Assembly (NCBI GenBank): GCA_048886685.1
Contig: JBHLKM010000001.1
Span: 192,001 to 256,000, forward strand
Direction of reading: 5' to 3'
Origin: Candidatus Hodarchaeota archaeon
GTDB lineage: Archaea; Asgardarchaeota; Lokiarchaeia; Sigyniarchaeales; SOKP01
DNA: 64,000 nucleotides
Below the pieces are notes generated by a model, which worked only from the letters and a program-made list of their open reading frames with translations, had not been told where the DNA came from and did no database searches. Of the stretch, positions 12,396 to 29,165 are shown one piece after another. Each line of letters begins with the position of its first letter. The first letter of the stretch is position 1. Both the position numbers and the translations under genes were made by a program.

Positions 12396-12584
12396 GTGAT
12401 GAAAATAGAAATCAATGAAGAATTGAAAAGAGAAATTCTGAAATTGATCTCGACTCCCGGAATTCAAATTGAGGATATAGTCGAGCAGCTAAAAATAGAC
12501 TATGATATAATAATGAACTTCTTATCTGAAGAATACTTAAAGCATAATTTTGATCATGGTCGAAGACTCTGTTGCAGATTTTAA
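12396..12584 (+). CDS. Small HTH-like hypothetical protein
   Basis: GGTGA SD; EILKLISTPGIQIEDIVEQLKIDYDII helix-turn-helix pattern. Confidence 0.55.
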   Translation: MMKIEINEELKREILKLISTPGIQIEDIVEQLKIDYDIIMNFLSEEYLKHNFDHGRRLCCRF

Positions 12585-12654: not shown

Positions 12655-12755
12655 ATTCTAAGAAACTTAGGACGCAAATTAAAGCGGTTTCGATATATAT
12701 TAGATATTGAAATAAGTTACCATGATTTTAATCTCGCGTTCTTAGGTTTCAGAAT
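12655..12755 (+). promoter_or_regulatory. Structured RNA leader upstream of rpl11
   Basis: Nested stems 12662-12675/12736-12750, 12678-12683/12727-12732 and 12688-12696/12704-12712, with G-U pairs on the + strand. Confidence 0.55.
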
Positions 12756-12795: not shown

Positions 12796-13328
12796 ATGAG
12801 TACTAAAGGAAAAGTAACTGTTAAAGCCCTTGTGACCGGTGGAAGTGCGTCAGGTGGACCGCCTATTACATAAAACATATCGTTTTTGTGAATTTTGGCA
12901 AAGGTCCAGCAGTTGGTCCAACAGGAATAAATATCAAAGATGTTGTCGACGAAATCAACGCACAAACGATGGTATTTAAAGGCTTAACAGTACCTGTCAG
13001 GATAGAATGTGATCCAGAAACAAAACAATTTGAAATTTTTATTGAAACACCTTCCACAGCCTCATTATTACTTAAAGAAGCCGGTGTAGAAAAAGGAAGT
13101 TCAGCATCTTCGGAAACTAAAATCGGTAATCTCACAATTGACCAGATTATTAGCGTTGTTGAAGCAAAGAAAGATAGGTTTCTAGATAAAAATTTTAAAA
13201 AAGCTGTTAAAACAGTTTTAGGGACTGCCTTATCTGCTGGAATAACTGTTGAGGGAGAGGATCCCAGAGAAATTCAAAGAAGAATAGAAAGGGGAGAATA
13301 TGACGAAAAAATCAGGGGTGAATTATAA
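12796..13328 (+). CDS. rpl11: Ribosomal protein uL11, split: join(12796..12866,12902..13328), 165 aa
   Basis: Exon 1 MSTKGKVTVKALVTGGSASGGPP(I) + exon 2 GPAVGPTGINIK...TPSTASLL; upstream of rpl1. Confidence 0.9.
12867..12901 (+). other. Putative 35-nt BHB/BHL-type intron in rpl11
   Basis: In-frame TAA at 12871-12873; exon helix TGGACC/GGTCCA; central helix GCCT/TGGC; bulges AT|T and AA|A; removal gives CCT-ATA-GGT-CCA. Confidence 0.8.
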
Positions 13329-13330
13329 AA

Positions 13331-14059
13331 GTGAAAGTAGATGATAAATTGTTAAGAAGATCTTTAAATGCAGCTATAGATTTTTCAGTAATTAAAAAGG
13401 AGGGATTTAAAGATAAGATACGAAAATTCGATGAATCTATTGATCTTATCATTAATATTAAAGATGTTAATCTAAACGACCCAAAAAATAGAATTGATAA
13501 AGAAATTATCCTTTCGAACGAAGTAATTACAGAGAATAAACCTAATATATGTGTTATTGCTTCTGACGAAATATTACTCGAAGCAAAAAAGATTGGTGTT
13601 GATACTCTTGATTTAGATGGATTAGTTAAACTAAATAACGAAGAAAAGAAGTATAAGAAGAAATTTGCCAAAAAATATGAGTATTTTGTTGTCGAAGATA
13701 AAATGATGCGTGATGTCGCTCGTTATTTAGCAAGATTTCTTGGTCCTTTAGGTAAAATGCCAAAACCCTTCCCTACTGGCTATGGAATAATCTCTAGTCC
13801 GGATGATTTGAAAGTCGCCTTTGATAGGTATAAGAAGGTAATTCGTGTTCAAATGAAAAAACAACCTATCATTTTTGCAAAAATAGGAAAAAAATCAATG
13901 GAATTTGATAAATTATTTGAAAATATGAAAACGGTCGTAAATTTTATAGGAGATCAAATGCCACATAAATTCAATAACTTTAAATCGATATATTTAAAGT
14001 CTACTATGGGAAAACCAGTAAAAGTAACTGAAGATTTTTTAAAGAGTATAGAGGTGTGA
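13331..14059 (+). CDS. rpl1: Ribosomal protein uL1
   Basis: RKFDESIDLIINIK, LGPLGKMPKP, KSTMGKPV; operon context. Confidence 0.95.
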   Translation: MKVDDKLLRRSLNAAIDFSVIKKEGFKDKIRKFDESIDLIINIKDVNLNDPKNRIDKEIILSNEVITENKPNICVIASDEILLEAKKIGVDTLDLDGLVKLNNEEKKYKKKFAKKYEYFVVEDKMMRDVARYLARFLGPLGKMPKPFPTGYGIISSPDDLKVAFDRYKKVIRVQMKKQPIIFAKIGKKSMEFDKLFENMKTVVNFIGDQMPHKFNNFKSIYLKSTMGKPVKVTEDFLKSIEV

Positions 14060-14063
14060 AAAA

Positions 14064-14951
14064 ATGATCAAAAAACAACATATACCTCAATGGAAATTAG
14101 ATGAAGTTAACAATCTAGTTGAATTGTTTAAAACCTATAATAATGTTGCTGTTATAGAAGTTGCTCATATCAATGATAAGCAAATTCAGTCAATGCGTAA
14201 GATTTTAAGGGGGAAGGCGGTATTTCGTATGTCTAAAAAATCCCTACAACTTCGAGCGATAGAACAATACAAAAAAGAGTCAAAAAAAACAAATTTAGAT
14301 GAACTAGCAATACATATTCCTGGTCAATCAAGCCTAGTTTTTACGAATCTTGATCTAATAGAATTAAAGGAGATCTTCCATGACTACGAATGGATGGTTC
14401 CGGCAAAACCAAATGAAATCACATCTGTAGATATTTGGGTGCCTGCTGGAGATACAGGATTACCAACTGGTCAAGTTATTAGTGAATTGAATATGACTTT
14501 AAAACTCCCTACAAGAATAATGAATGATACAATACACATTCGAGAAGATACAAGAACACATAAAGCAGGCGATTTGGTTACTGTAAAACAAGCCGCCGTA
14601 CTAAAAAAACTGGGTATAACACCAATAGAATCATTGATTAAAATCCATTTTGCTTGGAGTGATGGAGAAATTATTCCAAAAGATATCCTATATATGGATT
14701 TGAACAAATTTAAACAGGATATCGCTACTGGATATAGGCAAGCACTCGCTATTCTCTTTGAAATGCCCGTTTTTGAAGAAAGTATGACTAAAGATTATAT
14801 TCGGAAAGCTGTTTCTGAAGCTAATACACTGGATGCGATGATATTTGGAGAGGGATTAGCGGTGTCTGCCGAACTTGAAACTAAAGTTGAAGAAAAAGAA
14901 GCTGAAGAAGAGCCCGAGGAAGAAGTTGGGATTGGAGGATTATTTGGATAA
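14064..14951 (+). CDS. rpl10: Ribosomal protein uL10 (P0)
   Basis: IPQWK, VPAGDTGLPTG, LKKLGITP; acidic tail ending GIGGLFG. Confidence 0.95.
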   Translation: MIKKQHIPQWKLDEVNNLVELFKTYNNVAVIEVAHINDKQIQSMRKILRGKAVFRMSKKSLQLRAIEQYKKESKKTNLDELAIHIPGQSSLVFTNLDLIELKEIFHDYEWMVPAKPNEITSVDIWVPAGDTGLPTGQVISELNMTLKLPTRIMNDTIHIREDTRTHKAGDLVTVKQAAVLKKLGITPIESLIKIHFAWSDGEIIPKDILYMDLNKFKQDIATGYRQALAILFEMPVFEESMTKDYIRKAVSEANTLDAMIFGEGLAVSAELETKVEEKEAEEEPEEEVGIGGLFG

Positions 14952-15026
14952 TTATTAAGATTTTTTTAAATTTCAATTAAAATTACAAATATAATGGTAA
15001 AAAAAGTATAAAAGAGGTTAGATAAT

Positions 15027-15314
15027 ATGGAAAGTATTTATGCTGCATTATTGCTTCACAAGGCTGGAGGAAAAATTACAGAGGCCAATGTAGAAAAGGT
15101 ATTAACTGCTGCCGGTGCGAAAGCCGATAAAACAGAAATTGCGAAATTAATTGCTGGCTTGAAAGGAACAAACATCGAAGATATCATTAAATCTGCTGGC
15201 ACTATGCCTGTAATGGCTGCTCCAGCTGCTGAAAAGAAAGAAGCAAAGAAAGAAGAGAAGAAAAAAGAAGAAGAAGTCGAAGAAGAGCCTACGGGGATAG
15301 GAAGTCTTTTTTAG
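15027..15314 (+). CDS. rpl12: Ribosomal stalk protein P1 (aL12)
   Basis: MESIYAALLLH, acidic hinge, GIGSLF C-terminus. Confidence 0.95.
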   Translation: MESIYAALLLHKAGGKITEANVEKVLTAAGAKADKTEIAKLIAGLKGTNIEDIIKSAGTMPVMAAPAAEKKEAKKEEKKKEEEVEEEPTGIGSLF

Positions 15315-17693: not shown

Positions 17694-17789
17694 ATCTTTT
17701 CTAAAACGGTACTCTGAGAATTAATTCAAGACTTAATGAAATTAATTTATAGAATATTACTTTATTTTTTTTTCATAAAAATGAAGAAA

Positions 17790-17890
17790 CGCAGACAGAG
17801 GGATTCGAACCCTCGAGTGCATTCACACACTGGCTTTCTGGGAATATTTCCGCTCCAAGCCAGCGCCGTACCGGGCTAGGCAATGTCTGC
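17790..17890 (-). tRNA. tRNA-Ser(GGA) with 17-nt canonical 37/38 intron (17836..17852)
   Basis: GCAGACA/TGTCTGC acceptor; CTGGC/GCCAG anticodon stem; long variable arm; GTTCGAATC; BHB helix TTGG/CCAG. Confidence 0.92.
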
Positions 17891-18031
17891 ACAAAATCTA
17901 AACTAATTTTATTTCCTACATTTTCAAATAACAATTTAAAATTTTAATATTTTATCATAGAAATAAATGGAAAAGTGAAGAGAACATAAAAAAAAGAATA
18001 AATTAAAAAAAACCACATGAAAAAATGGATT

Positions 18032-26423: not shown

Positions 26424-26598
26424 GGGCCATTTGCTTAGCCTGGTTAACAAGGTTTTATATGCTTGGTCAACAAGCGCAGGTCTTATAAATGATCATCGGA
26501 CATACAATAATTAAATTGTCCGAAAAAGTAAAAACCTGAGATAAAAAGGGTTTATCCCTTTTACGAGGAAATCCGGGGTTCAAATCCCCGATGGCCCA
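26424..26598 (+). tRNA. tRNA-Ile(TAT) with three introns (26447..26471, ~26489..26533, 26541..26570)
   Basis: Removing the introns gives a 75-nt cloverleaf: GGGCCAT/ATGGCCC-A, GCTT/AAGC, CAGGT-CTTATAA-ACCTG, AGATC, CGGGG-TTCAAAT-CCCCG. Confidence 0.85.
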
Positions 26599-29072: not shown

Positions 29073-29165
29073 TGGCGGCCCTCGAGGGGAATCGAACCCC
29101 TATCCCTCCGCAGGATAACTGGGTTTGAAGCCCAGTGTCAGAGACCACTCTAACCGTCAAGGGCC
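29073..29165 (-). tRNA. selC: tRNA-Sec(TCA)
   Basis: 9-bp acceptor GGCCCTTGA/TCGAGGGCC; 7-bp D-stem; CTGGG-CTTCAAA-CCCAG; long variable arm; 4-bp T-stem; encoded GCCA end. Confidence 0.95.

What the first reader, a model, noticed from the sequence alone, without database searches (positions are those of the whole stretch)
12796..13328. Candidate tRNA-type (bulge-helix-bulge) intron in the ribosomal protein uL11 mRNA
Seen: an ATG at 12796 opens MSTKGKVTVKALVTGGSASGGPPI and hits TAA at 12871, while the rest of uL11 (GPAVGPTGINIK...) resumes in another frame 35 nt later. The break is inside the conserved P-P-I/L-G-P motif. The junctions fold like an archaeal splice substrate. Exon-exon helix: TGGACC(12855-60)/GGTCCA(12903-08). 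Central helix: GCCT(12861-64)/TGGC(12896-99), 3 GC pairs plus U-U. The 3-nt bulges are ATT(12865-67) and AAA(12900-02), and the intron hairpin is ACATAAAAC/GTTTTTGT. Established: archaeal splicing endonuclease (EndA) cuts after the second nucleotide of each bulge. Applying that rule gives AT|T and AA|A, excises 12867-12901 and joins CCT-ATA-GGT-CCA, yielding an intact 165-aa uL11. The well-known archaeal mRNA intron precedent is crenarchaeal cbf5. Inference: EndA/RtcB splicing of a core ribosomal-protein mRNA in an Asgard archaeon, possibly regulatory and possibly one of a wider set of such introns missed as frameshifts. The motif is relaxed (BHL-like), as are the tRNA-Ile introns in this window.
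Basis: partly seen in the sequence, partly recalled or inferred. Interest (0 to 1): 0.95.

Follow-up and report, generated by a model that had tools for sequence, protein, structure and literature searches.

The report
Mobile tRNA-type intron in Asgard uL11
The only ribosomal protein uL11 gene found in this Asgard (Lokiarchaeia) archaeon is broken by a 35-base insert shaped like a tRNA intron, so its mRNA very probably has to be cut and rejoined by the tRNA-splicing enzymes. Relatives carry such inserts at four spots in the same gene and appear to swap them in short DNA patches; the papers I could search show splicing inside an archaeal coding sequence for one gene only (cbf5).

Summary
Observation confirmed. 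Removing 12867-12901 restores a 165-aa uL11, the genome's only copy. The junction is a relaxed BHL motif (6-bp exon helix, 3 bp + U·U central helix), not a canonical BHB. At least 58 of 125 family genomes with a match carry 28-38-nt inserts at codons 17, 24 (this one), 28 or 34, up to three per gene. In 73 of 74 distinct inserts a homology-allowed register gives a ≥3-bp central helix, against 17% of other registers, with compensatory pairs. The genome encodes RtcB and a two-subunit EndA with the crenarchaeal loop needed for BHL cleavage, and holds at least 10 such mRNA inserts. New here: the inserts share a Y-[NNNUC]-G pentaloop, are scattered over the uL11 tree, and near-identical alleles differing in intron content show synonymous-change tracts over codons 16-40, which points to lateral exchange rather than regulation. 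No RNA evidence was obtained. The scan found this kind before on other DNA, including uL11. Verdict: EndA/RtcB-spliced mRNA intron, about 0.9; new variant of the cbf5 kind.

The parts
12796..12866 (+). uL11 exon 1 (codons 1-23 plus 2 nt of Ile24)
   Evidence: pN/pS 0.14 over codons 4-23 among site-B carriers; matches intact relatives
12867..12901 (+). 35-nt tRNA-type (BHL) intron, site B, phase 2 of codon 24; shifts frame and holds an in-frame TAA
12902..13328 (+). uL11 exon 2 (last base of Ile24 to stop)
   Evidence: starts at position 17 of Pfam Ribosomal_L11_N, then Ribosomal_L11
12855..12860 (+). 5' strand of the exon-exon helix (pairs with 12903-12908)
   Evidence: 6 bp, pairing probability 0.94-1.0; run of 5 or more in 18 of 20 carriers
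12861..12864 (+). 5' strand of the central helix (GCCT)
   Evidence: pairs with 12896-12899: 3 G-C plus U·U; Pro22 is CCG in 19/20 carriers vs 9/64 non-carriers
12865..12867 (+). 5' bulge/loop with predicted cut AT|T
   Evidence: EndA rule from literature; register test
12868..12889 (+). intron hairpin closing a C-[AUAUC]-G pentaloop at 12876-12882
   Evidence: stem pairs covary across site-B introns (A-U 6 / G-C 14 / G-U 1); YNNNUCG in 61 of 74 inserts vs 8% of shuffles
12871..12873 (+). in-frame TAA that ends the unspliced reading after 25 codons
   Evidence: a stop inside the insert in 22/22 site-B sequences
12896..12899 (+). 3' strand of the central helix (TGGC)
12900..12902 (+). 3' bulge with predicted cut AA|A
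12903..12908 (+). 3' strand of the exon-exon helix
12662..12750 (+). conserved structured 5' leader of the rpl11-rpl1-rpl10-P1 operon; neighbour, independent of the intron
   Evidence: core motif upstream of 63 of 100 alleles, 38 carriers and 25 intronless
13331..15314 (+). downstream operon genes uL1 (13331-14059), uL10 (14064-14951), P1/L12 (15027-15314), unbroken
   Evidence: same order in relatives

Best explanation
A tRNA-type intron in the uL11 pre-mRNA. The transcript folds a BHL motif; the two-subunit EndA, whose crenarchaeal-type loop allows relaxed substrates, cuts after the second base of each bulge (12866|12867 and 12901|12902); RtcB joins the exons to give CCT-ATA-GGT and full-length uL11. 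It belongs to a family of 28-38-nt mini-introns of this Lokiarchaeia family that sit in conserved motifs of many genes and mostly share a Y-[NNNUC]-G hairpin loop. They behave as tolerated, laterally exchanged passengers that enter or leave an allele with a short patch of flanking exon DNA, not as a fixed regulatory switch. Shown: DNA anatomy, frame restoration, register coincidence, covariation, enzyme genes, patchy distribution, synonymous tracts. Inferred: cleavage and ligation in the cell, and recombination as the cause of the tracts. Unknown: what first creates an intron, whether a nuclease drives spread, what the pentaloop does.
For: Single-copy gene, frame and invariant motif restored. 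Four sites found by motif-free spliced alignment, up to three per gene, always restoring the same protein. Best BHB register lies in a homology-allowed register in 70/74 inserts, 15% expected; central helix of 3+ pairs in 73/74 (4 in 60) vs 17% (4 in 2%) of other registers. Compensatory exon-intron pair at site A (U-A 9, A-U 7, U-G 3) and hairpin covariation at site B. Exon codons fit the helix. EndA alpha aligns to 3P1Z_B (E 5e-34) with K-P-R opposite K44-P45-R46, the loop that PMC3241643 shows is needed for BHL cleavage; beta subunit and intact RtcB present. At least 10 similar inserts in G000. Site B needs 12 changes on the tree vs 14.2 shuffled. Disjoint close pairs differing in intron set differ at 87/158 four-fold sites in codons 16-40 vs 21/127 in codons 45-80; same-set pairs 55/240 vs 29/194.
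Against: This intron's central helix has a U·U and lacks a stacked intron-side helix; PMC3241643 reports that BHL substrates are cut more slowly and cites poor cleavage of the cbf5 BHL in one study. Sequences are related, so the counts and Fisher tests overstate independence. The motif alone does not separate real from decoy geometry genome-wide. Tract co-transfer with site B itself is weak (6 of 20 vs 3.7 expected; sites A and C stronger, 10/20 and 13/25).
Confidence: 0.9

Rival explanations
1. Same splicing, but the intron is a regulatory gate for the rpl11-rpl1-rpl10-P1 operon, tying stalk-protein output to EndA/RtcB activity.
For: Slow BHL substrate in the first cistron; an in-frame stop inside all 22 site-B inserts would truncate unspliced mRNA; conserved pentaloop could bind a factor.
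Against: Absent from alleles 96-98% identical downstream; four interchangeable sites; scattered on the tree; the conserved leader is present with or without introns; hosts are unrelated genes.
Confidence: 0.12
2. Translational recoding (ribosomal bypass or frameshift) over an unspliced insert, with the hairpin as stimulator.
For: Stop two codons after the junction plus a hairpin resembles bypass elements (own knowledge: T4 gene 60).
Against: Take-off and landing codons match in 0/22 site-B, 0 site-A, 0 site-C and 1/6 site-D inserts; lengths fall in all three frames; the exon-intron helices that covary are EndA geometry; three bypasses within 20 codons would be needed in L018, L063, L069.
Confidence: 0.03
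3. Split gene: translation restarts at GTG 12888 and makes a 146-aa uL11 without its first 24 residues; exon 1 is a relic.
For: Databases hold many such 146-aa products.
Against: An in-frame start exists in only 11/22 site-B, 0/19 site-A, 0/6 site-D and 4/25 site-C inserts; exon 1 is under purifying selection (pN/pS 0.14).
Confidence: 0.02
4. Pseudogene or assembly artefact.
For: Genome is a MAG with 8% contamination; uL11 can be dispensable in some bacteria (own knowledge).
Against: Independent assemblies with diverged, covarying inserts at the same phase; both exons under purifying selection; no second copy.
Confidence: 0.01
5. On spread only: the tracts are homing scars made by a trans-acting endonuclease, the mini-introns being ORF-less derivatives of homing BHB introns.
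For: Tracts centred on the insertion sites; sites lie in conserved motifs; G000 has two free-standing LAGLIDADG ORFs; PMC2738675 notes ORF-deleted derivatives among rRNA introns and suggests this for cbf5.
Against: No long ORF-bearing uL11 insert seen in 125 family genomes; no link between those nucleases and uL11; intronless pairs also show tracts (L094/L095, L089/L091), so ordinary short-patch recombination in a conserved stretch could suffice.
Confidence: 0.25

Closest known systems
cbf5 pre-mRNA intron of Crenarchaeota (Watanabe 2002; Yokobori 2009, PMC2738675)
   Same: Short (16-44 nt) insert inside a conserved codon of a protein gene, often a relaxed BHB, cut by a hetero-oligomeric EndA after the second bulge base; gains and losses across lineages.
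   Different: cbf5 has one site in one gene and cDNA proof. Here: Asgard lineage, a ribosomal protein, four sites and up to three introns per gene with micro-exons, at least 10 inserts per genome, presence/absence between near-identical alleles, shared pentaloop, no RNA proof yet.
HVO_1309 5' UTR BHB intron of Haloferax volcanii (PMC7714728)
   Same: EndA substrate in an mRNA.
   Different: Untranslated region, 46 nt; the paper names cbf5 as the only other mRNA case.
Non-canonical tRNA introns of Asgard archaea and Thermoproteales (bioRxiv 10.64898/2026.10.13.758758)
   Same: Same motif, repeated gains, route of arrival unknown.
   Different: tRNA only (the text has no occurrence of 'mRNA' or 'cbf5'); it finds almost no intron families shared across genes in Asgard tRNAs, whereas these mRNA inserts share a loop motif.
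Homing BHB introns of archaeal rRNA and co-conversion tracts of homing introns/inteins
   Same: Patchy presence, conserved target, flanking exon differences travelling with the element.
   Different: No endonuclease ORF in the insert; no driver shown.
IRE1/RtcB splicing of XBP1/HAC1 mRNA (own knowledge; RtcB role also abstracts)
   Same: Short non-spliceosomal mRNA intron removed by protein nuclease plus tRNA ligase, shifting the frame.
   Different: Different nuclease, dual stem-loop substrate, regulated by stress; no homology tested or claimed.

Membership tests
Archaeal EndA-type intron, canonical hBHBh' | 4-bp central helix | tested here: not met
   3 G-C + U·U in this genome; 4 pairs in 10 of 22 site-B and 60 of 74 inserts overall
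Archaeal EndA-type intron, canonical hBHBh' | intron-side helix stacked next to the 5' bulge | tested here: not met
   h' = 1; about 6 unpaired bases before the 3' central strand
Archaeal EndA-type intron, relaxed BHL (cbf5 kind) | exon helix + 3-nt bulge + central helix, with the other site in a loop | tested here: met
   6-bp exon helix, AAA bulge, 3 G-C pairs, probabilities 0.94-1.0
Archaeal EndA-type intron, relaxed BHL (cbf5 kind) | cuts after the second base of each bulge coincide with the exon boundaries | tested here: met
   only register of 17 in this gene; 70/74 family-wide vs 15% expected
Archaeal EndA-type intron, relaxed BHL (cbf5 kind) | host encodes a broad-specificity EndA and RtcB | tested here: met
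   alpha with CSL K-P-R, second subunit, intact RtcB; activity not tested
Archaeal EndA-type intron, relaxed BHL (cbf5 kind) | spliced mRNA, excised intron or in vitro cleavage observed | tested here: inconclusive
Group I / group II self-splicing intron | ribozyme core of hundreds of bases | tested here: not met
   35 nt, single hairpin; no Rfam match near gathering score
Spliceosomal intron | GU...AG ends | tested here: not met
   insert begins UA and ends AA
Translational bypass element | matching take-off and landing codons | tested here: not met
   1 match in 72 inserts
Homing intron | encodes its own endonuclease | tested here: not met
   28-38 nt in all uL11 inserts found
Homing intron | co-conversion of flanking exon | tested here: inconclusive
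   tracts over codons 16-40 in pairs differing in intron set; link to carriers clear for sites A and C, weak for B; also seen between intronless pairs

The most novel reading that the evidence does not exclude
One Lokiarchaeia family has a laterally spreading class of mini mRNA introns: removed by the tRNA-splicing machinery, marked by a shared pentaloop that some factor recognises, and invading conserved motifs of essential genes by a nuclease- or RNA-guided route that leaves conversion tracts. That would be routine multi-exon mRNA splicing and ongoing intron invasion in a prokaryotic relative of eukaryotes.
Probability: 0.4. Interest if true: 0.93.

Novelty: new variant of a known kind. Interest (0 to 1): 0.84.

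Why it matters
Papers in the searched library give one archaeal coding-sequence intron (cbf5) and one 5' UTR case. If real, essential genes of an Asgard family, including a ribosomal protein with up to three introns in 20 codons, need splicing, so their annotations are systematically truncated (many 146-aa uL11 entries). Near-identical alleles with and without the intron, each with a dated conversion tract, give a direct way to study how EndA-type introns arrive, which the 2026 Asgard tRNA preprint names as the central open problem.

Tried and rejected
Two scans of JGI metagenome contigs for the joined junction, exact and degenerate: none. Viral contigs, site-B pattern: none. Short intact contigs L094, L095, L284 looked like possible spliced transcripts but differ from carriers at many synonymous sites around the junction, so they are intronless alleles, not evidence of splicing. 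Ab initio genome scans did not discriminate: 158 frame-joining hits vs 148-164 in shifted controls; 89 hits with 3-nt bulges vs 70-93 with decoy bulge sizes; a shared-intron search against G021 was swamped by wrong-frame matches. First spliced aligner timed out. No second copy of this intron sequence in G000 within 4 mismatches. No reverse transcriptase found with PF00078 in G000. No long ORF-bearing uL11 insert. Rfam: only chance-level matches. The invariant U in the loop profile is imposed by the search pattern and is not used as evidence. Literature searches found no report of Asgard mRNA introns; subscription papers are largely not covered.

Full report
Observation. Removing 12867-12901 gives a 498-nt frame of 165 aa. 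Of all 29-41-nt excisions tried, only this one and the one shifted by +1 restore PPIGPAVG; both give Ile24, and only the first has splice geometry. There is one uL11 match in the 4.4-Mb, 100%-complete genome. The exon helix (12855-60/12903-08) and three G-C pairs of the central helix have pairing probabilities of 0.94-1.0 in a 165-nt context. The fourth central position is U·U and the intron hairpin does not stack on the central helix, so this is a relaxed BHL motif.

Organism.

Family evidence. A motif-free spliced alignment of uL11 loci found inserts of 28-38 nt at four positions: codon 17 (A, 20 distinct junctions), 24 (B, this one, 22), 28 (D, 6) and 34 (C, 26). Some genes carry three (L018, L063, L069). 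Removal always restores the same near-invariant N-terminus. At least 58 of the 125 family genomes with a match carry one or more. In the 18 genomes of three other families of the order with a match, uL11 appears unbroken. The best BHB register of 17 falls within the registers allowed by homology in 70 of 74 inserts, 15% expected by chance; the central helix has 3 or more pairs in 73 of 74 (4 in 60) against 17% (4 in 2%) at other registers. Pairs covary: at site A the third base of a Gly codon and its intron partner go U-A 9, A-U 7, U-G 3; in the site-B hairpin one pair goes A-U 6, G-C 14, G-U 1. Carriers use CCG at Pro22 in 19 of 20 cases against 9 of 64 non-carriers, as the helix needs. These sequences are related, so the counts overstate independence, but the four sites are separate tests.

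Machinery. G000 encodes two EndA subunits and an intact RtcB. The catalytic subunit's best PDB match is 3P1Z_B (E 5e-34), and its K-P-R aligns with K44-P45-R46 of that chain; I take the chain to be Aeropyrum pernix EndA from its length and numbering in PMC3241643, which shows that this loop and lysine confer cleavage of BHL motifs. That fits the relaxed motif here.

Wider set. Aligning proteins from 2.0 Mb of G021 onto G000 found further inserts in a DnaG-like gene, a thioredoxin, a GH38-like gene and two unnamed genes, and a purA insert present in both genomes with different sequence; gene names there rest on recalled motifs except purA. Three inserts named in earlier first-reader notes (PFK twice, CobO) also check out. 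That is at least 10 inserts of 30-37 nt, a lower bound, most within conserved motifs. No other was found in this window by that comparison.

Two features not in the finding. First, the uL11 inserts at all four sites mostly close a hairpin with Y-[NNNUC]-G: YNNNUCG occurs in 61 of 74 against 8% of shuffles, and in 5 of the 10 G000 inserts. Its role is unknown: common ancestry or recognition by a factor. Second, the introns do not follow the gene tree. On a tree of codons 41-158, site B needs 12 changes for 20 rows, shuffled mean 14.2. Alleles 96-98% identical downstream differ in intron content and carry sharp tracts of synonymous changes over codons about 16-40; for example L094 and L102 differ at 17 of 25 codons there, 1 of 11 before and 5 of 114 after. 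In disjoint pairs chosen on codons 81-158 only, pairs differing in intron set differ at 87/158 four-fold sites in codons 16-40 versus 21/127 in codons 45-80; same-set pairs at 55/240 versus 29/194. Some close pairs have no tract, so the region is not simply hypermutable. I infer gain, loss and swapping by short-patch recombination with divergent donors. Whether a nuclease drives it is open: no ORF-bearing insert and no reverse transcriptase were found; two free-standing LAGLIDADG genes exist but are unlinked; intronless pairs show tracts too.

Mechanism. Shown: anatomy, register coincidence, covariation, enzyme genes, distribution. Inferred at about 0.9: EndA cuts at 12866|67 and 12901|02 and RtcB joins the exons. 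Regulation is unlikely as the main role (about 0.12), because near-identical alleles lack the intron and the conserved leader occurs with and without it. Bypass fails the matched-codon test, restart fails for lack of conserved starts, and decay fails because exon 1 has pN/pS 0.14.

What is missing. An earlier scan note (e1-2302325) mentions joined forms seen for other genes; I did not test it and do not count it. The motif alone has no discriminating power genome-wide.

Comparison and novelty. It works like the crenarchaeal cbf5 intron (PMC2738675) and meets the sequence-level features of a relaxed BHL intron; it fails the canonical hBHBh' definition, and splicing itself is untested. PMC7714728 names cbf5 and a Haloferax 5' UTR as the known mRNA cases; the 2026 Asgard preprint covers tRNA only. 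I found no paper on Asgard mRNA introns in the searchable library. This scan has noted the same kind before on other DNA, including uL11. Class: new variant of a known kind. Interest 0.84.

Noticed in passing
window 12662-12750 (+): Conserved structured leader upstream of rpl11 with a conserved inner hairpin; core motif in 63 of 100 alleles, with or without introns. Possible autoregulatory leader or small RNA; no Rfam match.
   Followed up: partly
window 26424-26598 (+): tRNA gene with apparently three inserts (D-loop 26447-26471 has a 4-bp central helix); anticodon most likely UAU (Ile), which is unusual in archaea. ARAGORN miscalls it Leu(GAG).
   Followed up: partly
window 17789-17891 (-) and 29073-29165 (-): tRNA-Ser(GGA) with a 17-nt anticodon-loop intron; tRNA-Sec(UCA).
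   Followed up: no
window 12396-12584 (+): 62-aa ORF directly upstream of the leader; similar-sized ORFs lie at this place in relatives' contigs; no Pfam match.
   Followed up: partly
G000 C1:28141-28177(-), C1:288829-288858(-), C2:163694-163723(-), C2:178201-178230(-), C4:207081-207110(-), C20:41175-41204(-), C16:51731-51761(-), C16:51416-51445(-), C17:95367-95399(-): Nine further BHB-type inserts in protein genes (DnaG-like, thioredoxin, unnamed, purA, unnamed, GH38-like, PFK twice, CobO).
   Followed up: yes
L296:967-1953 (+) and L297:802-1980 (+): Two free-standing LAGLIDADG-family ORFs; the first lies right behind tRNA-like genes, the second about 230 nt from the GH38-like insert on C20. 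No target known.
   Followed up: partly
G108 (C23, C63), G126 (C14, C167), G004 (C40, C161): uL11 appears as overlapping pieces on two contigs, with breaks near intron sites; G108 holds an intronless N-terminus while its other contig starts at codon 25. Suggests coexisting alleles within one population.
   Followed up: partly
L031:1453-2049 (-), L032:1438-2040 (-): Two-subunit EndA with a crenarchaeal-type specific loop in a Lokiarchaeia genome.
   Followed up: yes
P0001, P0004, P0005 and others: Public databases hold many 146-157-aa uL11 entries that start at false starts inside the intron; several records labelled Thorarchaeota, Hodarchaeota, Odinarchaeota or Nanopelagicaceae carry uL11 of this family and may be mislabelled or misbinned.
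   Followed up: no
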